Below, piece after piece: positions 904 to 64,000 of a DNA stretch of 64,000 nt. The translations under genes were made by a program, and so were the position numbers. How positions within the stretch are numbered: position 1 is the first letter of the stretch; each line of letters starts with the position of its first letter. Below the pieces are notes generated by a model that made no database searches, had not been told where the DNA came from, and saw only the letters and a program-made list of their open reading frames with translations. This DNA is from Naegleria gruberi (taxonomy: Eukaryota), in assembly GCA_000004985.1 (NCBI GenBank), contig GG738873.1, one strand, 5' to 3'.

Positions 904-3800
904 TAAAGAGAGCTATCCTTCTTCTTTCTGTAGTGAGCATCATAGGCACAAACATAAAAGTTATCAAAGACAGGGAAAAGAGATCCCAATAATTGACGAT
1001 GAGGTTGTTCAGTGATCCATTCAATGGTTGGTGAAATGGTATGATTAGAAGTTAGAATATCTTTCGAGTCAATTATGCTTTCCACATCGTTAAGTGCACA
1101 TACAAAGTGGCACTTGTGTTTTTGAATAAAGTTTTTGTAGGAGATCATCATGTATGGGAACGGGTATGACATGATTTTGTGACAGAAAAAGTCTCCATAA
1201 TCTGAATGCTTTCCTTCTTGTTCTTCTTCAGAATCAGTGGATTCGCTTGAGATGGAAATATTGTCGTTTCGTTTTGCTGTAAATGGATTAATAACAGAAG
1301 TATCTGCCTGGTAGTAGAGTAATAAGGCTAATCCATTCAAGTCACTTTGTTTCCAATAGTAAGAGTGACTTAACAAGCCAGGTTTCTTTACAAGTTCTGG
1401 TTTATATCCTGGAACCATAACTCTAAATCCTCTATAAGCATATTTTCGCAGTCTTAATTCATAAGTAAGTGATTGTCTTTCAATATCTACAAGATTGTAA
1501 CGACGAGTAAATGCTCTTCTAAATCTTGGTAAACACCACACTTTGTTTCCATCATATCCAACGCACTGTTATTTCAAAAATTCCACAATACAGTCCAAAG
1601 TAGAATTAGTCTCGTTGTGATTGAACTCATATATTACTTACACAAGAATCAATATCAAAACCAATCAAGACCTCTGCACAACTCTTATATAATCTGGTAA
1701 CAACTTGAATAGCAGGTATGCCAGGGGCACAGAATGTTACGGTATATTTTGTTCTGACAACAATAAAATTATCCTTTTTCACCTTCTTGACCAACGAATA
1801 AATATGTCTAATCTTATCTTCTGCTTCAGATTTAGTAAGGCCGTACAAAAAAATGTCAATATCCTGAGACGACTGAAGCATAGTTGCTGCTATCTTCTTA
1901 TTGTACATACTCGCATGGGCTTTACAACAAGTTTGAATGGCTCCTCCTAATATTTAAATGAGCAAATTAATAATACAATTAGTCACTTACCTGCAATGAA
2001 AACTCCATTCCAATCCAACTCTTCGAAAATGTTTGCAGTGAAAGACTTGAAGTTGAAATCAAATTCTTCCTTTCCTGTGGCAATGATTGGTATTTCCTTG
2101 CCATGTAGTTCAGAATTATTTTCAAAATCGAACAACATGTTTGTTAGTGTTGGTTGTTCCACAGGATAAAAATCTGTGACATTATCGAACACCGAGATTA
2201 AGTTCACGAAAGGGTCATCAATCAAAGGATTTTGTCTGTCATAACTGAACAATTTTCTAAGAATTGATTCAGTTTCTCTAATTTCTCTATCTTCCTCGCT
2301 TAAATCTTCAACAGGATATCTGAAAATATCTATCTTTACAGTGAGAGCATCAATACCAAAAAATTTAGACTCCTCAATGAGTTTAATTTGTTTTTGGTTA
2401 GCCAAACCAGTTGGAATAGTTTCATTCTTGATAAACTTGTAAATATAAGAAAACATAGAAGGATCCCTATCCAAAAAGATAGACTTCTTATCCTGACTCT
2501 TATTCATTAACTTGTAAAGTAAGCTAGATTCGTACTTGAGCAATTCAGTTGATTTGAAAGCAAAATCTTCACCACCAATATTAAAAACAATATCAAATTC
2601 TTCAACTGAGGTGGATTTCGCATCCTCATTCTTGAATGATGCTTTCATTTCTACCAATTTCGAAATTAAATCCTGTTCTTTCTTCAATCTTAACTTTTCA
2701 ACTAGCAATTTAGACTTTTTTTCTTCCATTGACCTCAATTGTTTAATGAGTTCTCTAATTTTTTCATCAGCTTGAGAAATGGCTTTTTCATTGGCCTTGA
2801 CTTTTTTATAATATTCTTCTTTTTCTTGTTCAATGTGTCTGTACTTTTCAGAGAGAACCTCTAATCCTAATGGATTTTCGAAATTTTCAACCTTCTTCTC
2901 AATCAAGGTCAACAAATCTTTCACACAAAAGTAATTACAAATTTCATGAAATTCCAAATAGTTTGCCAAATTGAATCCTTCTGTAATAAACTTGAACTTT
3001 TTCCTCATGGTGCTAGTAATTTCGTCTGAAAGTTCTTTATCACTTGGTGTAATCTCCTCGTCATCACCTCTGAAAAATATGAGAATGTGTTTAAAGTAGT
3101 CTGAGTGAGGAACTGAACGGAAAACAACTCTTCCTGCAGAATCTGTTTCAATATCAAATCCTCCACTTTCCTTGTTTTCAATCATTACCTTGATCAATGA
3201 ATCATACTTCATCATTGTCTTTCTAGTGGTTTTATAAATCTTGCCGTCAATGTTCAATTCAAGAAATGTTGTATTATCAGTTTCTTCGAGATTAAACTTG
3301 ATAATTTCTTCTACCAATTCATCGGATTGTTTTTCCTTCCTCTCATACTTTAACAATTCAATTTTAGCCTTTTCTAATAATTCCCTGTCAACTTGATGAA
3401 CATTATTGACAATAGATGAAGATGCTTCTGTTTCCTCCTTGTTATTACTTTCTTCACGTTGTTTGGCCCAGTAGGCTTGCATTGATCGCTTCACATAATT
3501 TCTAACAAGTGCAGATCCTTGTGTTGGCCGTTTAGCATCCTCCAATATAGTGAAAATAGGATGTTGAAAGAGTAAATCATCCTTAGAGAAGGCTGAAGCA
3601 CCAGCCCAACCAAAAGGCTTTGTATTTAAAGTGGTACTATTATTATGAGGATGATAGGTTCCACAACTTGAACAATAATAATAATCACTATTGTTACGAC
3701 GATAATCATCATCGTAATCATCGGAATCATCGTCTTCTTCAGAGGGATGGAAGGATCTATCACTTTCCCATTCATCAGAATCTTCGCCGGATGAGTACAT
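900..3800 (-). CDS. Double BTB/POZ (KCTD/T1-type) domain protein with a conserved C-terminal domain of unknown function; 3 exons, about 926 aa
   Basis: Exons on the minus strand are 3800..1991, 1946..1642 and 1565..900. The introns are 1990..1947 (44 nt, GTAAGT..TTAG) and 1641..1566 (76 nt, GTAAGT..ACAG). The reading frame is restored exactly across both introns, joining ORFs 1983..3800, 1627..1908 and 900..1541. An in-frame TAA lies just upstream of the ATG at 3800. Two T1/BTB-like segments are present: NIDGKIYKTTRKTMMKYDSLIKV..GRVVFRSVPHSDYFKHILIFFR and FNIGGEDFAFKSTELLKYESSLLYKL..IFLDRDPSMFSYIYKFIK. The N-terminus is acidic. Confidence 0.7.
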
Positions 3801-3871: not shown

Positions 3872-6256
3872 CTAGGCTAAAATTAATGTCGATAAGAATA
3901 AGATTTTTAGAGTTTTAAATTCACATATTTTAGATTGTCCAGAATTCTGGCTTGATTGTGTGTTAACAGAGTAAACTTCATAATCATCCACAGTAAAAGT
4001 TATAGAGCCAGCTAAATACAATGCACACGACTCACCAAGGACACATTCATAATCTGATCCAAAAACTGTAACACTATCTTTTTCAGTTTGGCCACGAATC
4101 ATCAAATCGGGAATTTTACCAAATTGTGGACCATTATTCTTATAATTTTCAATGGCAGACTTTGGGTTCAAAACTCTATGCAGTGACCACTTTCTTCTCC
4201 ACTTGCAGATTTAATACTGAATAACATTGCCTTTTCGTCGAAAACACGAACTCTGGTAACAGTGCTCTTCCAAGATACCTCCGAATAGCCACCAAAGATA
4301 TCTTTTCCAGACTTGGTAATCCTCAATGTTAGCCCTTTATTATCACATGCTCTGTGAAATTGTTCTAAATTGGAGCCATTCAATGAGGCTAACTATGGTA
4401 ATTTTTGCTCAATCATATAATCTCTTCCCAATGTTCAAAATCAAATCATCACTGAATTCAATAATTTATTTTCCCGGGGATATTTACAAAACAAATGTTG
4501 GTTCAAGTTTTAGATCAATGTGGTAATCTTCCAGGCAGAAAGATTTCATACGTTCTCTCAATTCCTCATCTCTTAGATTCAATAAGGTTGACAAATGGTT
4601 GTGTAATAATTTTGAAACAAGATCTTTGCTATCCTTTTCCACATAATCACCAATAATATTCAATGATTTTCTCAACATTTCTCTATTAATTGAACTAGAC
4701 AAGAGCATCTCAAATGCTTCTTCGAAATTAACATACTTCTGTGAGTCTTCCTTTTGTTGCAATTCATAGAGCCATTCATCGTCATTAACTTTGTCCTCTC
4801 CTATAAGTTCAATGATTTTCTGGGTGGTCTTTCCATCCAAATCAAAAGCAATATCTTCTCCCAAAACTGAATTCCTCTTTGAAAAGTGAACAGGTCTTGA
4901 AATAAAATCAGAAAGGAGAGCATTTGTCATGGATTCATCAGTTAGAATTTTTGTTCTAAGAGTCGCATTCAAAGAAGCCAGTTTCAATGCATTGCTAGAG
5001 CATTCACCAATCAAGGAAAAATACTTGACCTGACTAGTTCCAATATTTCCTACAAGACATTCAGAACGAGATACTCCAATTCCATAATCTAGTTCTGGTA
5101 ACTTGACTTGATCTTTAAGTTGTGAATTGACTGCTTCCATTTGTTTCTTCAGATGAACAGCACACATCAATGCTCCCTTCTCAAAACTTCTTCCATTCTC
5201 AAAACTGACCATAATTATCTTTGGAGTCACTATGGTAGCTCTTCCCCTAAATTGTTTGCTAACACTCTGAACTTTCTGATATAGCATTGTGAAAACACCC
5301 AACAAATCAGTTGAAATTGGATAGCTTCTTCCATCGAAATTTCTAAATTGAATTACCAACACTGTTGCCACATATGATGAAAGCCCCAATTCCAAGCTAA
5401 CTTTCTGTTGATGATTGCTTGTCATTGATGTGGTAGCCTGTGAAACCTTGCTCTTATGAGAATGGCCCCCAACAGAACTCATTTCAACAAAACTTGATAC
5501 TAAACTCGTTTTGGAAACTTGTTTTCTTTGAGTAACGAGTTTTCTCATCTCTATGAGTTGTTTCTCACGATGTTCCTCGGCCAGTCTATCTTGTTCTTTT
5601 TCCAAATCGTCGTCTTCCATTGAAAAGAGGCTTTCTGGAATAAAGGGTCTTATTTCCTTCATGACTTTGTTAAATTCCCAAAAGAGGCTAAAGAAGGGAA
5701 TGAATTCGGCTATCAAAGTTGGCATTTTCTCAATATCTTCAAATTTCATCTTCTTCATTTTGAAGAGTTGCAAAGTAATTCTTTGAAGTGGTCGTTTCAA
5801 AGTAAAATAATGTATAATTGGAATGGTAAGTAATGTCAAGATACTCATCACTACAAAGGTCAACCATGAAATGATGGAAATTATAGAAATATCAATTGAA
5901 ACTCCTTGATTAATAACTACAACCGAAGAGATCCATATTATCAAGCAAGTAATAAATAAGAGAGATAACGAGAGAGCAATCACAAGCATCCTAATTGACA
6001 TGAAACAGTCCACCACAGTTGACCTTCCGGTACTCAACGGATTATCAAACACATCACCTCGTTTTTCATCTACTTGAATGGAATCATTTGTGCTGGCACT
6101 GGGCACTATCATAATCTTGCTATTGTTTGTTTTTACATTGATTTTATCACTTCTCATTGATGCTTGCCTTGTCGAATTCAAAACAGCAATTTCTTGAGCA
6201 GAAGTTGACCCAACACTTTCAATTTCCAATCTTGATGGGAAAATACGGGTTGGCAT
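3872..6256 (-). CDS. Membrane protein with a degenerate class-III nucleotidyl-cyclase homology domain fused to a C-terminal TLDc domain; 2 exons; an apparent frameshift sits in the TLDc part (possible pseudogene or assembly indel)
   Basis: Exon 6256..4493 (ORF 4484..6256) is joined to 4392..3872 by a 100-nt intron at 4492..4393. The donor is TTT|GTTTTG (canonical GT, weak extended consensus) and the acceptor is CCATAG. The TLDc alignment runs continuously across this junction: ..DYHIDLKLEPTF|LASLNGSNLEQFHRACDNKGLTLRITKSGKDIFGGYSEVSW. Two or more TM helices occur at residues of about 90-150. Cyclase-like motifs are VLVIQFRNFDG, GRATIVTPKIIMVSFENG and DYGIGVSRSECLVGNIGTSQVKYFSLIGECSSNALKLASL, but the metal-binding Asp residues are not conserved. 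ORFs 4168..4383 and 3872..4171 overlap by 4 nt in different frames inside the TLDc domain (..LFSIKSASGEESGHC / ..NPKSAIENYKNNGPQFG). No intron of 34 nt or longer fits, so this is a frameshift. Confidence 0.55.
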
Positions 6257-6775
6257 CGTTCAATTTATTGAATATCCTCAATGGCTGATGGGATGTTGTT
6301 TGGGTTTTTTTATGAAAAAGCTTTGTTAGTGGGTGGGTTACTTTGTTTCTTCACTTCAATAGACATCAGATTGAGGCGCCACTCATAACAAACTAATATA
6401 GATATGTTAGTGCTAAATACATTTTGAGATTTTGTTTCGTATTAAATATTGCCCCTCACCTCAGAACATTTCATGCATTTGTCGGTGACAGACACATTTC
6501 GGATTTATCGCTGGACGCTTAAATGCAATTCTGAATTCAACCAGGTTTTAGTTACTAGTAAACGTATTTTTCTAAACCTATTTTAGAACAACCAGGTTCA
6601 AGCTTATTTGAACAAAAAACTTATTTAATAATACTCCAATCATTTCATTAATAATATTATTCCAGGCTAAAAAGGGTTCATGGCGCTCCTTTTTGCTTAG
6701 TAAAAAGGTCGCTCCTTTTGAATTGGTGAAGAAATAATATGTGGCAACCTACTCAATGAAACACATTAAGAAAAA

Positions 6776-8404
6776 ATGAATTTGTCATCAAACACCTTAA
6801 TATTATCAATCCAACTATGCTTTTTATTATGTTTCATTGGTGTTGTGATGGTGAACGGTTTAGAGTGGAATGGTCAAATTAAAATTGAAAATAGTGTTAC
6901 CATTCCGGTTGGTGAAAATTTGGTGATTAAGGAAGGTGCTGTGGTGAGCTTTGCTCCAACTACCTCAGCAAGTGGACAAATTTTGATAAGAGTGGAAGGT
7001 AGATTGAATATTGAATCGGGAGTTGAACTAAAAAGTGATGATATTTTGAATAATCAGAATGGTACAAATGACCAGTGGGGTTTCTTATTCCCTATTGGAA
7101 CCCAACAAGGTTCTTTAACATTAACAAATTCAAAGATTAGGAAGAGCTCTCCACTCTCCTCTGGAGTGGCAACTTTTTCATTTGAAGGAGGAGATAATTC
7201 AACAGGAATTGTTTTGGATAATTGTGAAGTGGATGGTGGTTTTATTGGCATTCATGTTTCGAGTAATATTGTCATTTCAATCAAATCAAGCTCTTTCTCT
7301 AACATGATATCAGCAGTTCAAACTGACAAGACATCCTTCCCTAAAATGACATTTTTTGATTCCAAATTCACTGGAATGGGTATTGCCATTGATGATAGAG
7401 GTATTTCATCAAACGGTGATTTGGTTTATAGAACCATCTCACTGACAGATTGTAAATTTAAGAGTGTCAGTCGTGCCATTAGTGCAAGCTGTAAGGTGGT
7501 TGTGTCTAGCAATGTATTTCAAGCATTTAGAGGAGCTATCACTGCACCATTTGTTCATTGTACCAATTCCATATTTGATAATAGACAATATATAGTATCT
7601 GCACTCGGTCTATATATTTCAAATATTCCTCAAGGTTATAAGGGAGAAGTTTTCATTAAGGATTCAACATTCTCTGAAATTACAGGCTCAGTCTTTGGAT
7701 CTCAAGGAGATGTTGTCGATTTCACATTTGTGAATAACATTGTGAGAAATTGTGCCACCTCTGCTGGTTTGAAAACTCGTCACTCCTTAATTGAAATGGC
7801 TGCAATTACTGGATCTGTCTCTATTACCAAGAATGACTTTGTTGGAAATCAAATTGTTGCTGGTTCAAGTGCCATACTCTCTCTGCATCAACTCCAATCA
7901 TTGGCTTATATTACCCACAATAATTTCCATGATAATAATATTAATACTTGTACTGTCAAAATGTCAAATGTACCAGATGCTTTGGGAGTATTGACCTTCT
8001 CACAAAATACATTTACCAATTACTTTGGAAGCAAATCTGAGATTGCAACAGAGTTTTGCTATGAAGGACCTTTAGGCAAAAAGATAAATATTGCCTACAA
8101 TTATTGGGGAACTGACCCAACCAGTATGGATGCAACTCAAATGTACGATATGATCATTTCAAAGTTGAAGCCACTCGATGCTCTTGAATTCACTCCATAT
8201 TATTTGACTTCCAATGTGGATGACCAAAGTTCAACCAATCTTGGTGGTCTCCACAAGCCAATCAAACCAAACTCTAGTATTATTGCAACAGTTATTGGAG
8301 GATTATTCGGAGGAATTACACTAGTTCTTTTCATCTCTATGATTATTGCTGTCACTGTAATTCTCATCCGAAGAAGAAGGAAAGGATATGAAAGTTTGAT
8401 ATAA
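6776..8404 (+). CDS. Type-I membrane protein with right-handed parallel beta-helix (PbH1/pectin-lyase-like) repeats, 542 aa
   Basis: Uninterrupted ORF from ATG 6776. The N-terminal signal peptide is LILSIQLCFLLCFIGVVMVNG. Periodic repeats of about 22-25 aa are typical of beta-helix coils, for example NCEVDGGFIGIHVSSNIVISIKSSSFSNM, with recurring N..F....AI patterns. The C-terminal TM IIATVIGGLFGGITLVLFISMIIAVTVILI is followed by RRRRKG. Many NxS/T sequons are present. Confidence 0.6.
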   Translation: MNLSSNTLILSIQLCFLLCFIGVVMVNGLEWNGQIKIENSVTIPVGENLVIKEGAVVSFAPTTSASGQILIRVEGRLNIESGVELKSDDILNNQNGTNDQWGFLFPIGTQQGSLTLTNSKIRKSSPLSSGVATFSFEGGDNSTGIVLDNCEVDGGFIGIHVSSNIVISIKSSSFSNMISAVQTDKTSFPKMTFFDSKFTGMGIAIDDRGISSNGDLVYRTISLTDCKFKSVSRAISASCKVVVSSNVFQAFRGAITAPFVHCTNSIFDNRQYIVSALGLYISNIPQGYKGEVFIKDSTFSEITGSVFGSQGDVVDFTFVNNIVRNCATSAGLKTRHSLIEMAAITGSVSITKNDFVGNQIVAGSSAILSLHQLQSLAYITHNNFHDNNINTCTVKMSNVPDALGVLTFSQNTFTNYFGSKSEIATEFCYEGPLGKKINIAYNYWGTDPTSMDATQMYDMIISKLKPLDALEFTPYYLTSNVDDQSSTNLGGLHKPIKPNSSIIATVIGGLFGGITLVLFISMIIAVTVILIRRRRKGYESLI

Positions 8405-17535: not shown

Positions 17536-19157
17536 NNNNNNNNNNNNNNNNNNNNNNNNNNNNNNNNNNNNNNNNNNNNNNNNNNNNNNNNNNNNNNNNN
17601 NNNNNNNNNNNNNNNNNNNNNNNNNNNNNNNNNNNNNNNNNNNNNNNNNNNNNNNNNNNNNNNNNNNNNNNNNNNNNNNNNNNNNNNNNNNNNNNNNNNN
17701 NNNNNNNNNNNNNNNNNNNNNNNNNNNNNNNNNNNNNNNNNNNNNNNNNNNNNNNNNNNNNNNNNNNNNNNNNNNNNNNNNNNNNNNNNNNNNNNNNNNN
17801 NNNNNNNNNNNNNNNNNNNNNNNNNNNNNNNNNNNNNNNNNNNNNNNNNNNNNNNNNNNNNNNNNNNNNNNNNNNNNNNNNNNNNNNNNNNNNNNNNNNN
17901 NNNNNNNNNNNNNNNNNNNNNNNNNNNNNNNNNNNNNNNNNNNNNNNNNNNNNNNNNNNNNNNNNNNNNNNNNNNNNNNNNNNNNNNNNNNNNNNNNNNN
18001 NNNNNNNNNNNNNNNNNNNNNNNNNNNNNNNNNNNNNNNNNNNNNNNNNNNNNNNNNNNNNNNNNNNNNNNNNNNNNNNNNNNNNNNNNNNNNNNNNNNN
18101 NNNNNNNNNNNNNNNNNNNNNNNNNNNNNNNNNNNNNNNNNNNNNNNNNNNNNNNNNNNNNNNNNNNNNNNNNNNNNNNNNNNNNNNNNNNNNNNNNNNN
18201 NNNNNNNNNNNNNNNNNNNNNNNNNNNNNNNNNNNNNNNNNNNNNNNNNNNNNNNNNNNNNNNNNNNNNNNNNNNNNNNNNNNNNNNNNNNNNNNNNNNN
18301 NNNNNNNNNNNNNNNNNNNNNNNNNNNNNNNNNNNNNNNNNNNNNNNNNNNNNNNNNNNNNNNNNNNNNNNNNNNNNNNNNNNNNNNNNNNNNNNNNNNN
18401 NNNNNNNNNNNNNNNNNNNNNNNNNNNNNNNNNNNNNNNNNNNNNNNNNNNNNNNNNNNNNNNNNNNNNNNNNNNNNNNNNNNNNNNNNNNNNNNNNNNN
18501 NNNNNNNNNNNNNNNNNNNNNNNNNNNNNNNNNNNNNNNNNNNNNNNNNNNNNNNNNNNNNNNNNNNNNNNNNNNNNNNNNNNNNNNNNNNNNNNNNNNN
18601 NNNNNNNNNNNNNNNNNNNNNNNNNNNNNNNNNNNNNNNNNNNNNNNNNNNNNNNNNNNNNNNNNNNNNNNNNNNNNNNNNNNNNNNNNNNNNNNNNNNN
18701 NNNNNNNNNNNNNNNNNNNNNNNNNNNNNNNNNNNNNNNNNNNNNNNNNNNNNNNNNNNNNNNNNNNNNNNNNNNNNNNNNNNNNNNNNNNNNNNNNNNN
18801 NNNNNNNNNNNNNNNNNNNNNNNNNNNNNNNNNNNNNNNNNNNNNNNNNNNNNNNNNNNNNNNNNNNNNNNNNNNNNNNNNNNNNNNNNNNNNNNNNNNN
18901 NNNNNNNNNNNNNNNNNNNNNNNNNNNNNNNNNNNNNNNNNNNNNNNNNNNNNNNNNNNNNNNNNNNNNNNNNNNNNNNNNNNNNNNNNNNNNNNNNNNN
19001 NNNNNNNNNNNNNNNNNNNNNNNNNNNNNNNNNNNNNNNNNNNNNNNNNNNNNNNNNNNNNNNNNNNNNNNNNNNNNNNNNNNNNNNNNNNNNNNNNNNN
19101 NNNNNNNNNNNNNNNNNNNNNNNNNNNNNNNNNNNNNNNNNNNNNNNNNNNNNNNNN
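17536..19157. other. Assembly gap (1,622 N) inside the giant gene
   Basis: Uninterrupted run of n. Flanking sequence on both sides is coding in the minus orientation. Confidence 0.95.
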
Positions 19158-38141: not shown

Positions 38142-40976
38142 ATGGCAAGAAACAATTTTTTTATTGCAATACTGGCTGTTTTTATTTTAGGATTAATTAC
38201 AGGTAGGTAGTAAAATCAACAAGAAGATGTAACACGGACTAGTTAATCTTTGTACCAATATTGTTAATGCTCAGGATGAAAATTCAGCAACAACAGAACA
38301 AGTGCAAAACCTTAAAGCTCAAAAACTTCTTCAAAATGATTTTTTAGAAGTGTTGAGCGTATTGCAAAAGCAGCAATCTGACCTCTCAGACGCAAACACC
38401 AAGAAGAAGCTGTTGGATACAAAGGAAGCTATTGAAATTTCTGGTCCATACCTGGCTGCTCTCAACATTACCTCGGATCAATTTACAACCATGCTAGCCA
38501 ATAAGCAAACTCAATTGCAAAGTGTAATGAGCTTGGAATTGGAGTTGAAGAATTTGATATCATTGACCCAAAACTCTGCTAATATTGTTGGTGATAACAT
38601 CAAAAATTTTGTAGCTGTAAGTATTAATTGTTTGTCTTTTATATTTAACATTAGCAGTTGTTCACAAAAAAAGCCTACACTGTGGATCAGTATCAAAATA
38701 CAACAAAAGAGGTACATAGATATGATCTTAATATTACCCAAGTTGATGCAATTGTTCCAAACTATCTAACTGCTTACCCAGTGAGAAGAATTAGAAATCG
38801 TATTTCAGTCGGTTTTCAACACGTGTTAGTACTAAACCAAAATGGGAAGTTGTACTCTACAGGTATTCCTTCTTATGGAAATCTGGGAAGAACCAACACT
38901 GATTCAAGAATGTTATATAACTTGCCTGTTCAAGGATTGGATGGTCTTGATATCCTTCAATTTGATGCCAATTATTACTCAAACCTTGTTTTAACCAATG
39001 ATGGAGTTTATTCATTTGGGTTGAATGACAAATCACAGATGGGAACTGGAGATAGAAATGACAGATATGTCGCTGGAAAGGTTTACGGATTTGGTGGACA
39101 AAATATTGTTCAAATAGCCATGGGACGCCAAGCATCCTATGCCATTGATTCCAACGGCAAGTTATGGGCCTGGGGTGACAATACCATGTACGGTCAATTG
39201 GGAGACAGAACCTTTTCTGAAAAGAATCGTCCTTTCCCAGTTTACAGCTATGGCGCTATTAACAGCACGGCTGTGGTTAGGGTTTGTGGGGGTGGTTACT
39301 TTGCTCTTGCCTTACTTGCAAATGGAAATATGGTTTCGTTTGGTGATAATTCATATGGACAGCTAGGTGTTAATAACCCATTAATTTCAAAATCGGGAGA
39401 ACCATTGTTGGTGGTTAAACCTTCAGAACTAGCCTCAAAGACAATTGTTGACATTCAATGTGGTTATGATTATGCAATGGCCCTTACATCATCAGGTGAT
39501 GTATATACTTGGGGAAACAACAATTACGGCCAATTGGGTGATGGAAGTTCTGGAGGTAAATCCCCAATTCCACAAAAGATCACAATTTCTGGCTGTACAG
39601 TATCCCAAATCCACACAAAATACCAAAGCTCATTTGCTTTGTGTACAAGCAACGAACTGTATTCATGGGGAATGAACTCTGTTGGCCAACTTGGAAGAAC
39701 TAGTAACCAAATACCAACAACTACCCCAACCAGAGTTGATCCTTCGTCGTTCTTGTCCAGCACTGATGACTATTTGGGCTTCCCCAAAATTATTGAGATA
39801 TCCTCCAATTTTAACAACATGTTCCTTACCACATCTGATTTGAGTATTTATGGAACCGGATCATGTATTGATGGTTCTAAACAGCAATTTGCCTTCTTCT
39901 ACACTACAAGATCCAGTGATTATGGGGCTTGCACTAGTTCCAATATTTTCTCCTTGAATTCAATGTCAAAGATGCCAACTTTCTCTTCTATTAGTTATCC
40001 AGTATCCCTTAGAAAGGCCCAATATTTTGAGATTGGAACAAGAGCCTACCTCCTTCAAACAGATACAGTAGTTCCAACCAGACCTAATAATGGCTTTAAT
40101 ATGTATTATAAGCAATTTGCTGATCCAGAAAACTCTTGGTCTATTATCGAACGAAATGAAGCCACCAACGCAGGTTTTCCTGTATCAATTTACAACAGCC
40201 ACTTCCTTAAAGCTGATGAATATGTCTACTTCTTTGGTGGTTTCATCAATGACGAAGTTTCAAATAAGATTTACAGGGCTCCAATTTATGATGTTGAATC
40301 TGGATGGGAACTCTGTAATTTTACTCTACCATATTCTGTTGCAAGTGGTATGACAACAGTTATTAATGGATACATTTATATTTTTGGTGGTATAACCAAG
40401 ATCTATTCCTACAATGGCGGTGAACTTCCAACTCTTTCTCCAACAGTTACAAACCAAATAATTAGAGCCCCAATTAATAATTTGACAAATTGGATGGTTG
40501 TTTCAGGAAAGGTATTGCCATCCGCTATACACAGTGCTTCCATTACAATTATTGACAAGTATGTCTATTTATTTGGAGGTTCCCCATCTTATTACTCTTC
40601 CAGCCAAGAAGTTTACAGAGCTTTGATTACTGATCCTTCATCTTGGGAAATGACTTTTGGTTTACTTCCATTCTTTGTAACAAATGGTGCTTTTATCTCA
40701 ACTGGTAATGAATTGTTAATGGTTGGAGGCACAGCTTCTGGCAGTTTAGTGAATGGAGGATTTATGGCGATTTCAAAGAAGTCACAATTTGACCCAGTCG
40801 GCTCATGGATGGCTAGTGATGTATTCTTACCTTCAAATGCTGCCCAATCTCTCATTACAGTGATTAGAAACGACACAGTATTGCTCTACGGAACTGAATT
40901 GCACCGTAGTACTTCTTACACTCCCCACTCACCAAAAATTGGAAGAGTTTTGAAGCTTGCACTCGATCTGTACTAA
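38142..40976 (+). CDS. Paralog A: secreted protein with coiled-coil + RCC1-like beta-propeller + Kelch-like beta-propeller; 3 exons, 918 aa
   Basis: Exon 1 is 38142..38202 and encodes MARNNFFIAILAVFILGLITG. Intron 1 is 38203..38242 (40 nt, GTAGGT..CTAG, phase 1). Exon 2 is 38243..38616. Intron 2 is 38617..38654 (38 nt, GTAAGT..TTAG). Exon 3 is 38655..40976. The frames of ORFs 38302..38769 and 38658..40976 join exactly. The predicted signal peptide cleaves near ..IVNA|QDEN. About seven RCC1-like blades carry G.N..GQLG motifs, for example YGNLGRT, GLNDKSQMG, GDNTMYGQLGD, GDNSYGQLG, GNNNYGQLGDG and GMNSVGQLG. The Kelch-like repeats are YVYFFGG, YIYIFGG and YVYLFGG. Confidence 0.8.
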
Positions 40977-45610: not shown

Positions 45611-47016
45611 ATGGAAAAACTGAAAAACGAAACTCTCCCACAATACCCACCAACGGACAATAATAATACAGACTACTCGATCACACAGACAACAGATGAC
45701 CACTCTAAAAACAATAGTACACCACTTTTAAAGAGTACCACAATCGTTTTAGAACAAGGAAATTATAGAATTCATGTTCTAGGGACTGCTCATGTATCGG
45801 AAGAATCAGCAAGAGAGGTGAGAGAATTAATTTTGGAAAAGAAGCCCTCGATAGTAATCTTGGAATTATGTCAAGGAAGAAGTTCAATTCTTGTAGATAC
45901 CAACATTTTGAAAAAGAAGCCTTTTGAAAAATCGGAAAATAGTTTTGATGGAGAAAACAGCTCACCCATATTGATGGAAAAGACAGAGGAAATTGATCCT
46001 CACAGTAATAACAATAATAGACAAAGTTTATTTTCATTACTGATGGATTACGTAAAGAGTAAGTTTAAATCTTTTTTTGTTTGACCTTATTTTCATCATT
46101 AGAAAAGAGGAAAATTACACTTTTTCAATTGGCACTTGTATATTTCATGCAAAAGGTTACAAATGATTTGAAAATACAAACCGGAATTGAAATGAAAGCA
46201 GCATATGATATTTCTGTAAAATTAAATTCGAGAATAATTCTAGGAGATAGACCAATAGATATTACGTTGAATAGATGCTGGCATTTGATGGGCTATTTCC
46301 AAAAATTCAAATTTATTTCACATATTTTATATGCCTGCACACAGACATTTTCCTCTAAAGACATTGAAATGTTGAAACATTCCGATATTTTGACGGATAT
46401 TATTGAAGAGTTTGGAAATCAATTCCCACAGCTTGCAAGAGTGTTGGTTGATGGTATGTAATGAATAATTCTAATTTTGTAATCATTTTCAAAAGAACGT
46501 GATGCCTATCTTACTCATTCAATTCTCAAGGCAATTGAATATCTGGAAAATGAAAGGCTCAGAAGAGATCAATTGGATAGTGCAGATGATGTTGAATCTA
46601 ATAATTCTAACATTTCTTCAAATAATTCAACAGCTTTGGAAGAATCAAAAATAACAACAACCAATACTACAGATATATCGACCATTACTAATGAGAGTAA
46701 GGAAAATCAAATTGAGGAGGAAGGAGCAAACAGTTGGAGTGAATCAGAAGATGAGGAAATAGATACAAGGAGTGGCGATAATTCAAGTGAAACAACTCAA
46801 CCAGATTTGGATCCAAATACAATTGTTGTAGTTGTTGGGGCAGGACATGTTAACGGTATTTCAAAATACTTTTCCAATCCAGAAAAGATTAACAGACGAG
46901 AAATTATGAAACGATACAAGAATGAGTCTAATACGGGAAATATTCTTTTCATTTTTGCTATCCTTTTCACTTTATTGGGAATTGTAATGTATTTGTTCAA
47001 AGATATGTTCATGTAG
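45611..47016 (+). CDS. TraB/PrgY-family (TRABD-like) protein with C-terminal TM helix; 3 exons, 439 aa
   Basis: Exon 1 is 45611..46058. Intron 1 is 46059..46102 (44 nt, GTAAGT..CATTAG, phase 1). Exon 2 is 46103..46453. Intron 2 is 46454..46495 (42 nt, GTATGT..CAAAAG, phase 1). Exon 3 is 46496..47016. Frames join ORFs 45611..46084, 46081..46461 and 46573..47016. TraB motifs are YRIHVLGTAHVSEESAREVRELILEKKPSIVILELCQGR, LGDRPIDITLNR and ERDAYLTHSI. The C-terminal TM is ILFIFAILFTLLGIVMYLF. Confidence 0.75.
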
Positions 47017-59018: not shown

Positions 59019-61799
59019 ATGAAAATCAAGCCATCCCCAAACACGCACATCAACAAACGGGTGGTTTTTTGCGTCCTCCTCGCTTTGCTAGGACTTGGTA
59101 AGTAGTGTGGAGGAATAATATGTTGACACGTTTAAAGTATTTGTAGTGGTCAAGGCTCAATCAGAACAATCTTTCAGTGAATATGTACTTTCCTTAATGT
59201 TCATGATTCAAAAAAGACAAAGTTTGATGGGAATTGAAACAGATTATTTAAGTGAAGCTGACAAAATTATCTACAAGGAGAAAATAATTTATAATACAAA
59301 ATATGCAATGGAAAGGTCTCTAGCCTCTATTAACAAGCTTGGTGTTAAAGAACAAACATATACCATACTTCTCTCAGCCAAACAAAACGAAGCAGCAGCC
59401 GCTTGGGACTCTCTTGTTGAAGTTAACAGTTATATCAATGTTACTAAGCATGCTGTTTCAGTTGCCTACTCAACCATTGATTCAATCAATGAGGTATGTT
59501 TTTTTACAATTTTTGTTGCTGAACCAGTTAGAAATTATCGAATGTACTTCTAAGCTACCACCATTGGCAAAAAACTGACCTCGATTTATTGCCAGCAAAC
59601 ATGACTCTCAATACTACAGTTGGTTATCTCCCAAATCATGTAATGTATTTCCCAGTTATGAGAATTAGAAATAGAATTTCTGCTGGATTAAATCATGGTT
59701 TGTTCCTTGGCCCTGGTGGTAATTTGTATTCTTGGGGTGTTGATATGGGTGGTTCTTTGGGAAGATCTGTTAACACACCAATGCCAAGTTTGGATTTGCC
59801 TGTAGAATTGAAGAACGTTACCATTCTTCAGTTCACTAACTCTTACTATGGAAATCTGTTGCTAGCTGATGATGCCGTCTATTCATGGGGAAAGAATGAC
59901 TATGGAGTTGATGCTGATGGTACAACTGTGAATCATTACCAACCAAGGAAGGTCTTTTCATGGGATTTACAAGGTCCTAAAGGAATCGCTCAGATTGCTT
60001 CTGGCCCATATAACTTTTATGCTATTGACGAAAATGGTAAACTCTATTCATGGGGAAAGAATGATTTTGGCCAACTTGGCGATAGAACTCCAATTGACAA
60101 ATGGAGACCTGTGGACGTTTTTATGAAGGGTGCTTTGCTTAATCAAACAGTTACCAGAGTTTGTGGTGGTTTGACTCATACTCTTGTCCTTGCCAACAAT
60201 GGAATGCTTTACTCTTTTGGTGATAACTCTAAAGGACAACTTGGTATCGGAGTTAGTTCCTCAGTTATTGCAAAGAAATGGGAACCTGTCCTCATCAATT
60301 TCCCATTCAATGACACAATTGCAGATATTCAATGTGGTGATAACCACAACCTGGTGCTCTTGACTGGAGGTGCCATGTATGCTTGGGGTCTTAACGACTA
60401 TGGGCAACTTGGAGATAATACCACAACAACAAGAACAAAACCAACCAAAGTCAACACACTCTCAGCTATTGGTACAAGAAAAGTTGTCAAGATTGAATCA
60501 AGACTCAACGAGAATTTTGCCTTCTTGGAAAATGGAGCCATGGTTTCATGGGGTCAAAATGATTATTCTCAATTAGGTCATTCCAAAATAGCAATTATAG
60601 GCAATATTGCCACCACCTTTATAAATGTTCCGGTAGAGTTTAGCTTACCCAATGGTTATATGCCTTCTGAAATAGCAATCATGAATGGATCAACTGTAAT
60701 TCTTGGTGCAAATGGCACCCTTTATGGTGCTGGATTTTCTTCAGAAAGTACCAGAAAACTGTTGAACATCACCACTTCCCAAACTAAGTTTACCCAGTGT
60801 TACACCTTCCCACCTATATACCCAGTTATGGAAAGAAGACATTATCCATATATCCAACTCAACGAAAAGAGCTATGCATTTATTGGATCCAAGTACTTTT
60901 CTTACCCTGATAATGGGTTTGATGGATACGTGAGGAATAACACCTCTCCAGAATTGTGGTCAATGATTGATTATCAAAATACAACATCACAGATGTTCCC
61001 TGGTTCCATTTACAATACTCATATTTTGAGAACTAACCAACATGTTTACTTCTATGGTGGTTTTGTTAATGGATCAATTTCAAACCTTATTTACAGAGCT
61101 CCAGTGGATAATATTGAAAATGGATGGGAAATTGTTAAGCCAACGCTCCCATTCCCAGTTTCAAACGGTATGTCCATTTTATTGGATGACTTTTTCTACA
61201 TATTTGGTGGCTTGACTTGGTTTAATAGCACAGACAAAGGATTCGTATCAATTGGTGTTTCATCAAGTATTTTGAGATGTCATGTTTCCAGTCCAACCCA
61301 ATGGGAAATAATGAGTGGTGGTGGGTTGCCAAGAGGTGTCTATAGTGGCAATATTGCAAGAATTGGAGATTTCGTCTATATTTTGGGTGGGCGAGTTAAC
61401 ACGGGTGATGCGTTTGCTGACATCTTCAGAGCTCCTTATTTGAATATTAGTCAATGGGAAAATACTTACTCAGTGCTTCCATTCCCTTTATCTGATAGCC
61501 CAATGATAATTACCAATAGTAGTATCTACCTCATGGGAGGATATTTGTCTGAGTACTCTCCAAATATTATTGGTACATACTATCCTCATATTATTACAGC
61601 TCCTCTAAGTGATCCAGTTGGTTCATGGTCTGTTACTGGAGACAAGCTCCCAACTAATCCAGCTTTTCAATCTGTTACTTCGCCAGTAGTTGTTGGATCG
61701 AATGTATATTTATACGGTAATGATGCCTCAAAGATAACAGAGACAAACATCAGAAGTACCACTGTCAGCTCATTCATTAAGATTCCTCTATTGGTTTAA
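59019..61799 (+). CDS. Paralog D: secreted coiled-coil + RCC1-like + Kelch-like protein; 3 exons, 897 aa
   Basis: Exon 1 is about 59019..59097 and encodes MKIKPSPNTHINKRVVFCVLLALLGL. Intron 1 is 59098..59146 (49 nt, GTAAGT..TTTGTAG, phase 1). Exon 2 is 59147..59493. Intron 2 is 59494..59531 (38 nt, GTATGT..CAGTTAG, phase 0). Exon 3 is 59532..61799. Frames join ORFs 59146..59553 and 59589..61799. RCC1-like motifs are GVDMGGSLGRS, GKNDYGVDADG, GKNDFGQLGD, GDNSKGQLGIG, GLNDYGQLGD and GQNDYSQLG. Kelch-like repeats are HVYFYGG, FFYIFGG, FVYILGG and IYLMGG. Confidence 0.75.
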
Positions 61800-61990: not shown

Positions 61991-64000
61991 ATGATCTGGA
62001 GCAATACTCATGTAGAGGTTAGTCCAAAGAGCATTGGGCTTGCCGTGGTATTGTTATTTGTATCAATATCTTTTATTTGTAAGTTTCTCCAAGTAATAAT
62101 TGAAGCATATAGTCCATATAGGTGTTACTTCAAGTGCTCAAACAACCCAATACAATAGCACATTAACTTCAGAATTGTTTTACAAACTGTCATTTTACAG
62201 AGAAAGACGAGATAGTTTTTACCAGATTTACACAGACTACGTTCGTCAAAATCAAGAAATAGAAGAATCCAGAATTAAATTGAAAATTAATATTACAAAA
62301 GAGGCTGTAGAAGCTTCTTTTTATGAAATTACAAAATTAAGAATTCCAGTTGAACAATACTATCAAATGCTGAATAATAAGAATATACAATACGCAAACC
62401 TAGAAGAGGTTCAGAAGGAGCTTGATGACTTGATCACATTGACTGATCTTGGTTTCCTACACACCCAATCCACCCTAGATGATGTAGAAAAAGTAAGTCC
62501 TTCAGTTATTGGAAATGCTTATCGGTAATAGTCTGCTTCTAACATTTTGTACAATGAAGAAAAATGGCAATTGGCCAAAACAAGGAAGATAGTTTCCTCA
62601 ATGAACTTTACTACGACTGTTGGATTTCTTCCTAGTCATGCTAGATCTCACAAAATACCAAGAATTAGAAATAGAGTGTCTGCAGGAAAAAATCATGGTA
62701 TTCTTCTTCATTATAATGGACTACTCTATTCTTGGGGCGCTGACAATGGTGGTGCTTTAGGTAGACCAAATAGTGCAGGTGTCTCATCTTTTACTCTCTC
62801 TACCCCTGTTGAATTACCAAAGAATATTTCCATTCTTCAATTTGTTAGCTCAAACTATGCCAATTTGGTTCTTGCTGGAGATGCAGTTTATTCTTGGGGC
62901 AGAAATGAATACGGAGTTGTTGGTGATGGTACTTTTGGTGGAAATAAGCCACCATACAAGTTATTCTCTTGGGATTTGCAAGGTCCAAAAAGAATTGAGC
63001 AAATTGGAGCTGGAGGCTACACTTTTTATGTAATTGATGAAAATGGAAAAGCATATGCTTGGGGCAGAAACAATAGAGGCCAACTTGGAGACAAAACAAC
63101 CATTGACAAGCCAAGACCAGTTGACGTCTACATGAAAGGCATTTTACTCAATCAAACAGTCATTAGGGTTTGTGGTGGAGAAAGTCACACTTTGTTGTTG
63201 ACTAGTAATAATGAATTAGCGGCTATGGGTGACAACACTTATGGGCAATTAGGTGTGGGTACTTCTGGTGGATATAAAATGGAACCAACAAGAGTCAACA
63301 TCAAATTTAATGGTACTATTATGGACATACAGTGTGGTGAAAATTATAACCTTGTCTTAACTTCCAAAGGGTTGGTATACGGTTGGGGAAGGAACGATGT
63401 TGGTCAACTTGGAAGTGGAGACAAGCTAGACAAGTTGGAACCTACTCTTATTTCCTACCTTAAAAACAGCACAGTAGTCAAGATTTATGCCAGATTTTCG
63501 ACCTCATTTGCTCTTACCAATGAAAGTTTCTTATATGCTTGGGGTAATAACAATCAATACCAATTGGGTGCTAGTTCAGCCACCCTTTTTACAGTACCTC
63601 AAAATATAACACTCCCAGAATATGTGACTGTTGTTGACTTGGCTGTCATGCAAGGAACAACTGTATTTTTAGGAAATAATGGTACTTATTACGGTAGTGG
63701 TGGATCAACTAATGGAGAACTGCTCCGTATTTCATCACAACAACCAGCCTTCGACTGGATTTATAATGGATTGAGTTTTTATGGGTTTGCAATGGAAAGA
63801 AGAAGATATCCATATTTTGAAGTGGATGATATTGCCTACCAGTTTGTAGGGGACAATTTTGCAATCTTTCCAGATAATGGTTTTTACCTTTATAAGAGAA
63901 ATATTGCAGATCCAACAATGGGTTCGATTGTAGAATACAGAAACAATACTGGCAAATTCTTCCAAGGAACAATTTACAATTCTCATATGCTTAGACTAGG
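61991..64000 (+). CDS. Paralog E (3' end truncated by the window edge): secreted coiled-coil + RCC1-like + Kelch-like protein; at least 3 exons, more than 645 aa in the window
   Basis: Exon 1 is 61991..62078 and encodes MIWSNTHVEVSPKSIGLAVVLLFVSISFI. Intron 1 is 62079..62112 (34 nt, GTAAGT..CATATAG, phase 1). Exon 2 is 62113..62492, in the ORF 62100..62528 frame, and ends ..DDVEK|GTAAGT. Intron 2 is 62493..62531 (39 nt, ..GTAATAG). Exon 3 runs from 62532 and stays open to the window end. This frame is absent from the ORF track, presumably because it has no stop. RCC1-like motifs are GADNGGALGRP, GRNEYGVVGDG, GRNNRGQLGD, GDNTYGQLGVG, GRNDVGQLGSG and GNNNQYQLG. Confidence 0.7.

What the first reader, a model, noticed from the sequence alone, without database searches (positions are those of the whole stretch)
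3872..6256. Cyclase-homology + TLDc fusion gene joined across a weak GTTTTG donor, with an internal frameshift in the TLDc domain
The 590-aa ORF (TM helices plus a class-III cyclase-like domain lacking the canonical metal-binding Asp residues) and the downstream TLDc ORFs look separate on the ORF track. However, the TLDc alignment continues seamlessly across a 100-nt GT-AG intron (4492-4393): ..HIDLKLEPTF|LASLNGSNLEQFHRACDNKGLTL... The donor TTT|GTTTTG is atypical for this genome, which otherwise uses GTAAGT/GTAGGT/GTATGT. Within the TLDc domain the frame shifts near 4168-4171 (..SASGEESGHC / ..NPKSAIENY). This is therefore either a decaying pseudogene or a single-base assembly error in an unusual pseudo-cyclase-TLDc fusion. 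I do not recall this domain pairing (cyclase-like + TLDc) from described families.
Basis: partly seen in the sequence, partly recalled or inferred. Interest (0 to 1): 0.6.

Follow-up and report, generated by a model that had tools for sequence, protein, structure and literature searches.

The report
Annotated pseudo-cyclase gene plus dead TLDc gene
This stretch of the Naegleria gruberi genome most likely holds two separate things, an already annotated membrane protein with a catalytically dead cyclase-like domain and, just downstream, an unannotated and recently broken TLDc gene, rather than one novel fusion gene.

Summary
The window is Naegleria gruberi NEG-M. The 590-aa ORF (4484-6256, minus strand) is exactly XP_002676245.1, annotated "Adenylate/Guanylate cyclase".

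What holds up:
- The cyclase-like domain is real by fold, although Pfam PF00211 does not detect it.
- Both metal-binding Asp residues are replaced (Q303, K346) in all six family members.
- The downstream TLDc homology is real (PF07534, 43-49 bits).
- The frameshift is real. An independent assembly of a 98%-identical strain carries it too, so it is not an assembly error.

What changes:
- The frameshift is a 1-nt deletion at 4190/4189, not at 4168-4171. An intact orthologue fragment from another species shows this.
- That orthologue gives dN/dS 0.32, so the TLDc coding sequence was functional until recently.

The fusion is not supported:
- All six homologous genes, from four Naegleria-type sources, stop at exactly the same position (...[V/I/L]L-stop).
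- The four homologue loci examined show no TLDc downstream.
- GTTTTG does not fit the GT[AG][ATG]GT donors inferred in this window.
- Reading the TAG at the proposed acceptor as a mutated Tyr codon gives MIEQKLPY-LASLNGS..., which matches the TLDc KLLY motif about as well as the fusion does.

Verdict: a known gene plus an ordinary young pseudogene. A former fusion cannot be fully excluded (about 0.2).

The parts
4484..6256 (-). Complete single-exon gene for a membrane-anchored pseudo-cyclase (590 aa; TAA stop at 4484-4486). It equals N. gruberi NEG-M XP_002676245.1 / EFC43501.1 / UniProt D2VHY8.
   Evidence: ORF; exact-sequence match; the stop position is conserved in six homologues.
5753..6025 (-). 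Two long hydrophobic helices (residues 78-116 and 123-168), a probable transmembrane hairpin.
   Evidence: AlphaFold2 secondary structure and the hydrophobic sequence itself. Membrane insertion is inferred.
4892..5395 (-). Degenerate class III cyclase-homology domain (about residues 288-455). The metal-binding Asp positions are occupied by Q303 (5348-5350) and K346 (5219-5221).
   Evidence: Foldseek E 6.6e-8 to 2w01, followed by many class III cyclases; PDB profile hit E 1.6e-4; alignment with two PF00211-validated cyclases; Q303, P345 and K346 are invariant in the family; no PF00211 hit.
4417..4483 (-). 67-nt spacer between the cyclase stop codon and the candidate TLDc start codon. It contains AATAAA at 4465-4470.
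   Evidence: Sequence. It is similar in size to the 71-nt TLDc-to-BTB spacer. Any function of the AATAAA is an inference only.
4393..4492 (-). It is judged more likely to be the last two codons plus stop of the cyclase gene, the spacer, and the first eight codons of the TLDc pseudogene.
   Evidence: Coordinates checked; donor consensus; conserved stop.
3965..4416 (-). TLDc pseudogene, from the candidate start ATG (4416-4414) to the end of the domain (...DDYEVYSV at 3965-3982). The open frame now runs on to TAG at 3872-3874.
   Evidence: PF07534 scores: 43.2 bits for the frame-corrected sequence, 46.7 with MIEQKLPY added, 49.3 if fused to the cyclase tail. Orthologue P0054/L005. dN/dS 0.32.
4393..4395 (-). 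In-frame TAG at the position of the conserved Tyr of the TLDc KLLYrasrDGF motif. It is either a TAY-to-TAG nonsense mutation or the AG of the proposed acceptor.
   Evidence: A custom TLDc HMM aligns KLPY-LASLNGSNLEQFH to kllYrasrDGfsastFH, adding 4.3 bits with Y at the TAG position; with six other residues there, W adds 2.1 bits and the rest add almost nothing. MAFFT alignment. The tblastn alignment of P0008 runs through the stop to 4410.
4189..4190 (-). Site of the 1-nt deletion that causes the frameshift (GAAGAAAG^TGG). It is shared by NEG-M and strain L003.
   Evidence: Alignment with L005, which reads GAAGAAAGATGG and keeps the frame; the same sequence is present in L003.
4168..4170 (-). 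TGA that ends the shifted reading frame.
1983..3800 (-). Neighbouring BTB_2-domain gene (first exon). Its ATG lies 71 nt downstream of the TLDc open frame. It is not part of the feature, but it is the syntenic anchor shared with L003 and L005.
   Evidence: Pfam BTB_2, 58 bits; synteny.

Best explanation
There are two adjacent loci on the minus strand of a Naegleria gruberi NEG-M scaffold, not one fusion gene.

1. A complete, already annotated single-exon gene (4484-6256) encodes a 590-aa protein.
- Its parts are a disordered N-terminus, a two-helix membrane hairpin, a helical linker, a degenerate class III cyclase-homology domain and a helical C-terminal region ending in ...PTFVL.
- Both Mg2+-binding aspartates are replaced (Q303, K346) in every family member, so the domain cannot catalyse cyclisation by itself (inference from established class III cyclase mechanism).
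- It most likely acts as a non-catalytic dimerising or regulatory module (inference, not shown).

2. Sixty-seven nt further on lies the wreck of a small stand-alone TLDc gene (ATG 4416 to about 3965).
- It was under purifying selection until recently.
- In the NEG-M/L003 lineage it carries a nonsense codon where the conserved Tyr of the KLLY motif should be (TAG 4395-4393), and a 1-nt deletion at 4190/4189.
- Its domain-end stop is also missing compared with L005.
- Strain L003 has in addition lost the ATG, gained a 2-nt insertion and changed the terminal TAG to TGG.
- It makes no functional TLDc protein.

The in-frame GT...AG link to the cyclase gene is coincidental. The 'donor' GTTTTG is simply the last two codons (Val-Leu) of the cyclase gene.
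For: Identity and completeness of the cyclase gene:
- The window's 590-aa ORF and the neighbouring 542-aa ORF are exact N. gruberi NEG-M proteins. The former is annotated as the unspliced 590-aa product.
- Six homologues (39-57% identical, plus a 99% strain variant) end at the same alignment column: EPTFVL*, DPTFIL*, SDSIL*, YESLL* (twice), SNSIL*.
- TLDc tblastn searches of L001, L002 and L004 gave no hit. In L004, and after the distal paralogue in L001 and L002, the next called gene starts 14-118 nt after the stop on the opposite strand.

Cyclase-homology domain:
- Fold; profile hit.
- Asp replaced by Q303/K346.

TLDc:
- Pfam 43-49 bits.
- The deletion is identical in the independent assembly L003, which has further lesions.
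- The intact orthologous frame in L005 fixes the deletion site.
- dN/dS is 0.32 with dS 0.62, and is similar in both halves.

Donor:
- 10 of 15 junctions between long same-strand ORFs can be bridged with a GT[AG][ATG]GT donor, although such hexamers are only 1.9% of all GT sites. The inferred introns are mostly 38-86 nt.
- The homology-supported intron in L004 is GTAAGT, 39 nt.

Stand-alone start:
- KLP-TAG aligns with KLLY of intact TLDc proteins.
- Adding MIEQKLPY raises the Pfam score from 43.2 to 46.7 bits.
- Database TLDc proteins exist with only 5-15 residues before that Tyr.
- A 67-nt spacer matches the 71-nt spacer to the next gene.
Against: - Fusing the cyclase tail to the TLDc piece gives the highest Pfam score (49.3 bits, profile positions 10-169) and would supply the otherwise missing N-terminal part of the domain.
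- The join is exactly in frame with GT and AG in place.
- Between NEG-M and L003 the first TLDc half (225 nt) has no substitution, while the second half has 7 plus an indel. The adjacent BTB gene has a synonymous divergence of only 0.9%, so this is not significant.
- The Tyr at the TAG is assumed, not observed, because L005 does not cover that part: its 5' portion is an inverted piece of the BTB gene.
- The gains from MIEQKLPY and from the cyclase tail are both only marginally better than shuffles (18/500 and 39/1000).
- No transcript data could be consulted.
Confidence: 0.68

Rival explanations
1. One reading: a lineage-specific cyclase-like + TLDc fusion gene. The final VL-stop of the cyclase ORF is spliced out through a weak GTTTTG donor (100-nt intron, 4492-4393). 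The TLDc exon was later truncated by the 1-nt deletion, leaving a 662-aa product with half a TLDc domain.
For: - The GT...AG join is in frame.
- The Pfam TLD score rises from 43.2 to 49.3 bits and profile coverage extends from 37-169 to 10-169 when the tail is attached. That is higher than six shuffles, a reversed tail and two N. fowleri tails.
- No long upstream coding region for TLDc exists within the 90 nt before the acceptor.
- The TLDc sequence was under selection until recently, so it must have been expressed somehow.
- The first TLDc half shows zero substitutions between the two strains.
Against: - The stop position and the terminal [V/I/L]L are conserved in all six homologues. TLDc searches of the homologue loci gave no hit, and in L004 the next gene starts 14 nt after the stop.
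- The tail of the TLDc-less L004 gene also gains 3-4 bits, so part of the gain is a family feature of the tail.
- With 1000 shuffles the gain has p of about 0.04.
- GTTTTG differs from the inferred donor consensus at positions +3, +5 and +6.
- The public annotation and the protein collection hold only the 590-aa product; the 662-aa product is absent.
- The stand-alone reading scores the same on a custom HMM.
Confidence: 0.2
2. The frameshift is a single-base sequencing or assembly error, and the TLDc reading frame is intact in the organism.
For: The scaffold is a draft with an N gap, and the shift lies in a purine-rich run, GAAGAAAG.
Against: An independently assembled contig from a metagenome (L003), 98.2% identical to the window, has exactly the same sequence at the site, plus a further 2-nt insertion at 4123. 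The in-frame TAG is also shared.
Confidence: 0.02
3. The TLDc piece is a 5'-truncated partial duplicate that landed here and was never functional at this locus.
For: No match to the N-terminal 28-36 profile positions exists in its own frame. No close paralogue was found: the best stretch in any non-orthologous protein is 60% identical over 55 residues.
Against: The copy at the same syntenic position in another species (upstream of the BTB gene, L005) differs by dS 0.62 but dN/dS only 0.32 in both halves. The sequence at this locus was therefore constrained for most of that time.
Confidence: 0.06

Closest known systems
Class III nucleotidyl cyclases (cyclase-homology domain, Pfam PF00211), e.g. 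Cya2 of Synechocystis (PDB 2w01), Rv1625c, mammalian AC C1/C2
   Same: Same fold and strand/helix order. There is recognisable sequence similarity around the beta4-beta5 hairpin, GIGVSRSECLVGNIG against GIGINTGEVVVGNIG. The membrane anchor N-terminal to the domain resembles that of many membrane cyclases. The N. gruberi and UniProt records name it a cyclase.
   Different: Below any PF00211 threshold. Both metal-binding Asp residues are replaced by Gln and Lys in all members. The Asn/Arg pair of the transition-state motif does not align with Asn/Arg either, though that part of the alignment is uncertain. It should be regarded as a pseudo-cyclase; activity was not tested.
TLDc domain proteins (Pfam PF07534; OXR1, NCOA7, TBC1D24, TLDC1/2 and the many protist TLDc proteins)
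   Same: Clear domain match including the hallmark motifs: FH..CDNKG.TL, IFGGY...W, F.FS, GP.FG, DL.I, LAGS..F.V.DYEV. Mammalian TLDc proteins are reported to bind the V-ATPase (PMC8608904, title and abstract only, listed).
   Different: Here the reading frame is interrupted by a stop and a 1-nt deletion, and the normal stop is lost. The nearest intact non-orthologous relatives reach at most 60% identity over short stretches, so it is an old lineage-specific member, now dead.
Unitary (non-processed) pseudogenes in compact protist genomes
   Same: Syntenic position retained, multiple independent disabling lesions that differ between strains, and a signature of past purifying selection.
   Different: Nothing unusual. 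The only notable point is how closely it abuts the upstream gene, which creates a spurious in-frame GT-AG link.

Membership tests
Class III cyclase-homology domain (PF00211) | Score at or above the Pfam gathering threshold (21.9 bits) | tested here: not met
   No PF00211 hit at E<=1 for the whole protein or at E<=10 for the isolated domain. Two canonical cyclases used as controls scored 197-201 bits.
Class III cyclase-homology domain (PF00211) | Cyclase fold (beta-alpha-beta-beta-alpha-beta core) | tested here: met
   The AF2 model of residues 292-432 has pLDDT mostly 55-80 in ten-residue blocks. Foldseek against PDB gives E 6.6e-8 to 2w01, and the top 50 hits are almost all class III adenylyl or guanylyl cyclases. 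The profile against PDB sequences gives E 1.6e-4. Overall model confidence is low (mean pLDDT 48).
Class III cyclase-homology domain (PF00211) | Two metal-binding Asp residues (FxDIxGFT and GD motifs) | tested here: not met
   They align with Q303 and K346, which are invariant in six family members.
Class III cyclase-homology domain (PF00211) | Transition-state Asn and Arg (NxxxR motif) | tested here: inconclusive
   In alignment A3 they fall on K and L of SSNALKLASL, but an Asn lies three residues before that Lys and the alignment is only 16-21% identical.
Class III cyclase-homology domain (PF00211) | cAMP or cGMP synthesis | not testable with these tools
   Requires an enzyme assay.
TLDc domain (PF07534) | Score at or above the Pfam gathering threshold (24.5 bits) | tested here: met
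   42.6-49.3 bits, depending on the repair and on what is attached N-terminally. The first half alone scores 34.9 bits.
TLDc domain (PF07534) | Uninterrupted reading frame encoding the whole domain | tested here: not met
   1-nt deletion at 4190/4189; TAG at 4393-4395. The profile is covered only from position 37 in its own frame, from 29 with TAG read as Tyr, and from 10 with the fusion.
Spliceosomal intron of this genome (for 4393-4492) | GT...AG ends with the reading frame preserved | tested here: met
Spliceosomal intron of this genome (for 4393-4492) | Donor matching the consensus used locally, GT[AG][ATG]GT | tested here: not met
   GTTTTG. Consensus donors are found at 10 of 15 ORF junctions against a 1.9% background, and in the homology-supported L004 intron. 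The local intron set is inferred from ORF structure, not from RNA.
Spliceosomal intron of this genome (for 4393-4492) | Exon junction supported by homologues | tested here: not met
   All homologues terminate two codons after the supposed donor, and TLDc searches of the homologue loci gave no hit.
Spliceosomal intron of this genome (for 4393-4492) | Spliced transcripts | not testable with these tools
   No RNA data are reachable. The predicted 662-aa product is absent from the protein collection, which is only weak negative evidence.
Unitary pseudogene | Disabling lesions that are real rather than assembly artefacts | tested here: met
   The same deletion and the same TAG are present in the independent assembly L003, which adds ATG-to-ATC, a 2-nt insertion and TAG-to-TGG.
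Unitary pseudogene | Descent from a functional gene at the same locus | tested here: met
   The syntenic orthologue in L005 has an intact frame over the part covered; dN/dS 0.32, dS 0.62.

The most novel reading that the evidence does not exclude
The N. gruberi lineage briefly had a true pseudo-cyclase-TLDc fusion protein. It would have been made by recruiting a non-consensus GTTTTG donor from the last two codons of the cyclase gene and capturing a neighbouring TLDc gene as a 3' exon. That pairing did not turn up in two full-text literature searches run here. The fusion is now truncated by a 1-nt deletion.
Probability: 0.17. Interest if true: 0.35.

Novelty: new member of a known kind. Interest (0 to 1): 0.15.

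Why it matters
It matters little beyond annotation.
- The cyclase-like gene is already in the N. gruberi gene set, although it should be labelled a pseudo-cyclase because both catalytic aspartates are missing throughout the family.
- The TLDc remnant is an unannotated young pseudogene.
- The case is a useful caution. In compact genomes with 60-90 nt spacers, a dead downstream gene can be linked in frame to its neighbour by a chance GT...AG and then look like a novel domain fusion.
- If the fusion were real, it would be a small example of gene fusion by exon capture, and of a TLDc domain attached to a signalling scaffold.

Tried and rejected
- My first repair of the frameshift added a T to the TTTT run at 4171-4174. 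It gave a good Pfam score but was wrong; orthologue P0054/L005 showed that the deletion is at 4190/4189.
- I looked by eye for mini-introns that could bypass the frameshift (15, 27 and 103 nt GT..AG candidates around 4175-4290). The first two keep the wrong frame, and the third lands in a third frame and would remove the conserved TLDc core.
- Other strong-looking donors also fail. GTATGA at 4551 to AG at 4174 skips the first TLDc half, and joined to 4393 it gives the wrong frame. GTGAGT at 4035 to the BTB start removes the conserved C-terminal TLDc motif and is absent in L005.
- Translating the 'intron' in another frame (IIEFSDDLILNIGKRLYD...) as a possible TLDc N-terminus gave no score gain.
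- Two metagenome scans for more orthologous loci, one with the fused protein and one with the family alignment, found nothing.
- Look-ups of NEG-M gene context failed because those proteins are not in the contig index.
- The word-indexed search with TLDc found only the L003 ORF and one distant B-box-TLDc protein.
- A literature search on Naegleria splice-site consensus and one on TLDc together with cyclase returned nothing relevant; only titles and abstracts were seen.
- The 5' part of L005 could not be used to see the TLDc gene start, because it is an inverted piece of the BTB gene.
Full report
**What the window is.** The 590-aa ORF at 4484-6256 (minus strand) and the neighbouring 542-aa ORF at 6776-8404 are exact matches to Naegleria gruberi NEG-M proteins XP_002676245.1 ("Adenylate/Guanylate cyclase", UniProt D2VHY8) and XP_002676165.1. 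Both lie on a 461,873-bp scaffold. The window is 35% G+C and has a 1,622-nt run of N at 17536-19157. The upstream half of the finding is therefore an already annotated gene, and the public model is the unspliced 590-aa product.

**Checking the observation.**
- The ORFs are as described.
- Removing 4492-4393 (GT...AG, 100 nt) joins ...HIDLKLEPTF to LASLNGSNLEQFH... in frame.
- The two short downstream ORFs are two halves of one TLDc domain. A frame-repaired translation scores 42.6-43.2 bits on PF07534 (cut-off 24.5) in one stretch covering profile positions 37-169 of 170.
PF00211 gives no hit at E<=1 on the protein or at E<=10 on the isolated domain, while two canonical cyclases used as controls score about 200 bits.
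- The domain is nevertheless real. A profile of six family members hits guanylyl cyclase Cya2 (2w01) at E 1.6e-4.
- An AlphaFold2 model has low overall confidence (mean pLDDT 48), but ten-residue blocks across residues 292-432 mostly reach pLDDT 55-80. It matches Cya2 at Foldseek E 6.6e-8, followed by dozens of other class III cyclases.
Both are invariant in the family.
- So 'cyclase-like but lacking the metal Asp' is confirmed.

**The frameshift.**
- An exhaustive search with the first TLDc half found a 121-aa protein, P0054. It reads ...SIKSSSGEERWSFHKVLKPKYAIEN... and so passes without interruption from the window's first frame into its second.
- Its contig L005 (Logan assembly of SRR19753241) aligns with the window at about 78% identity and, like the window, has the start of the BTB gene just downstream.
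- The alignment shows GGAGAAGAAAG-TGGTCA in the window against GGAGAAGAAAGATGGTCC in L005. This is a 1-nt deletion between 4190 and 4189.
- My own first repair at the TTTT run was equally wrong.

**It is not an assembly error.**
- Contig L003, from an unrelated metagenome assembly, is 98.2% identical to the window over 7.8 kb.
- It has the same deletion and the same TAG at 4393-4395.
- It also has lesions of its own: ATG to ATC at 4414-4416, a 2-nt insertion at 4123, and TAG to TGG at 3872-3874.
- The flanking ORFs have no indels at all.

**The TLDc sequence was a working gene until recently.**
- Between the frame-corrected window sequence and L005, dS is 0.62 and dN/dS is 0.32. The values before and after the deletion are similar, 0.39 and 0.27.
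- The sequence at this locus was therefore constrained for most of the time since the two species split.
- This argues against a never-functional fragment and makes the inactivation young.

**Is it fused to the cyclase-like gene?**

Evidence against:
- The family alignment, completed with the spliced second exon of L004, shows that all six homologues end at the same column. In each, 13 residues follow a conserved C/T-L/I-E/D-x motif, and the endings are EPTFVL*, DPTFIL*, SDSIL*, YESLL*, YESLL* and SNSIL*. The two residues that the proposed splice would delete are thus conserved as [V/I/L]-L, and the stop is ancestral.
- TLDc tblastn searches of L001, L002 and L004 gave no hit.
- In L004 the next called gene starts 14 nt after the stop on the opposite strand. 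In N. fowleri and N. lovaniensis the second gene of the tandem pair is followed by an opposite-strand formin gene.
- Donors: 10 of 15 junctions between long same-strand open segments can be bridged by a GT[AG][ATG]GT donor, although such hexamers are only 1.9% of GT sites. The inferred introns are mostly 38-86 nt. The homology-supported L004 intron is GTAAGT and 39 nt. GTTTTG differs from this pattern at three of the four variable positions. These introns are inferred from ORF structure, not from RNA.
- The 662-aa fusion product is not in the 15-billion-protein collection.

Evidence for:
- Attaching the cyclase tail raises the Pfam TLD score by about 6 bits and extends coverage to profile position 10. 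That is more than six shuffles, a reversed tail and two N. fowleri tails.
- However, the tail of the TLDc-less L004 gene also gains 3-4 bits. With a custom TLDc HMM and 1000 shuffles, 39 random tails do as well.

**An alternative that explains the same bases.**
- In the TLDc frame the codons just upstream of the 'acceptor' read ATG ATT GAG CAA AAA TTA CCA TAG | TTA GCC..., that is M-I-E-Q-K-L-P-stop-L-A-S-L-N-G.
- In intact TLDc proteins this is the K-L-L-Y-r-a-S-r-d-G motif, and the TAG sits exactly on the conserved Tyr.
- Reading it as Tyr (one base change from TAT or TAC) gains 4.3 bits on the custom HMM, the same as the whole cyclase tail. Of six other residues tried there, Trp gains 2.1 bits and the rest almost nothing. 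The Tyr reading gains 3.5 bits on Pfam.
- The tblastn alignment of P0008 also runs through the stop.
- TLDc proteins with only 5-15 residues before that Tyr exist in the database.
- The resulting 67-nt spacer to the cyclase stop is like the 71-nt spacer to the BTB gene.
- A small stand-alone TLDc gene, killed by a nonsense mutation and a 1-nt deletion, is thus at least as good a reading. It needs no unusual splice site and no change to a conserved C-terminus.

**Remaining doubts.**
- L005 does not show the TLDc 5' end. Its first 290 nt or so are a reverse-complemented piece of the same BTB gene, joined with about 13 nt of microhomology. This is either a fold-back chimera or a real inversion.
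- Between NEG-M and L003 the first TLDc half has 0 of 225 substitutions and the second half has 7 plus an indel. This looks like constraint. But synonymous divergence in the adjacent BTB gene is only 0.9%, against 2.7% and 4.2% in the two other ORFs compared, so the contrast is not significant.
- No transcript data could be reached.

**Mechanism.**
- Shown: the pseudo-cyclase has two long hydrophobic helices, a helical linker, a cyclase fold without either metal ligand, and a helical C-terminal region.
- Shown: the family is conserved at 39-57% identity across the Naegleria-type sources recovered here, and is tandemly duplicated in N. fowleri and N. lovaniensis.
- Inferred: it cannot catalyse cyclisation on its own and acts as a dimerising or regulatory module.
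- Shown: the TLDc locus has a broken reading frame. Inferred: it gives no functional product.

**Verdict.** This is an annotated gene plus an ordinary young pseudogene. The fusion is probably an artefact of tight gene spacing. I put about 0.68 on the two-gene reading, about 0.2 on a former fusion, and about 0.02 on sequencing error. Interest is low.

Noticed in passing
window 17536-19157: A 1,622-nt run of N, i.e. a scaffold gap. It explains the apparent 0-14% G+C dip in the composition profile.
   Followed up: yes
window 1566-3800 (minus strand): The BTB_2 gene next door probably continues beyond its 605-aa ORF through a 44-nt intron (1990..1947, GTAAGT...TTAG) and a 76-nt intron (1641..1566). 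Between NEG-M and strain L003 it shows 11 nonsynonymous but only 3 synonymous changes (pN/pS 0.86), unlike its neighbours (0.16-0.17).
   Followed up: partly
L005 1-300: This 925-bp Logan contig joins a reverse-complemented piece of the BTB gene (about residues 134-230) to the TLDc sequence at ...CTTGATGAAG|ATTTTCAT, with about 13 nt of microhomology. The normal BTB start follows downstream. It is either a fold-back chimera from library preparation or a real inverted duplication in that species.
   Followed up: partly
L004 1501-1539 versus window about 4731-4740: The 57%-identical orthologue has a 39-nt GTAAGT...TTTTAG intron after ...KQK, where N. gruberi has uninterrupted coding sequence (...QK YVNF...). 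This is an intron gain or loss between close relatives. The automatic gene call P0002 is truncated at the stop inside this intron.
   Followed up: partly
window, e.g. 38617-38654, 46059-46102, 46454-46495, 59494-59531, 62493-62531 (+); 55221-55182, 43592-43552, 43242-43198 (-): The inferred introns in this window are very short, mostly 38-45 nt, with strongly conserved GTAAGT, GTATGT, GTAGGT or GTGAGT donors.
   Followed up: partly
L001 8001-12124; L002 8001-12105: N. fowleri and N. lovaniensis carry the pseudo-cyclase as a tandem pair of paralogues (FDP41_011864/011863; C9374_000917/000916). Only one copy was recovered for N. gruberi in the protein search. The 458-aa N. lovaniensis model lacks the membrane hairpin and may be mis-annotated at its 5' end.
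   Followed up: no
L003 (ENA ERZ929261, run ERR1078381), whole contig: A metagenome contig 98.2% identical to NEG-M over 7.8 kb, meaning a close N. gruberi-type strain was present in that sample. Divergence is very uneven: 4.8% with six indels in the 519-nt intergenic region 6257-6775, against 0.8-0.9% in the two long ORFs at 4484-6256 and 1983-3800.
   Followed up: partly
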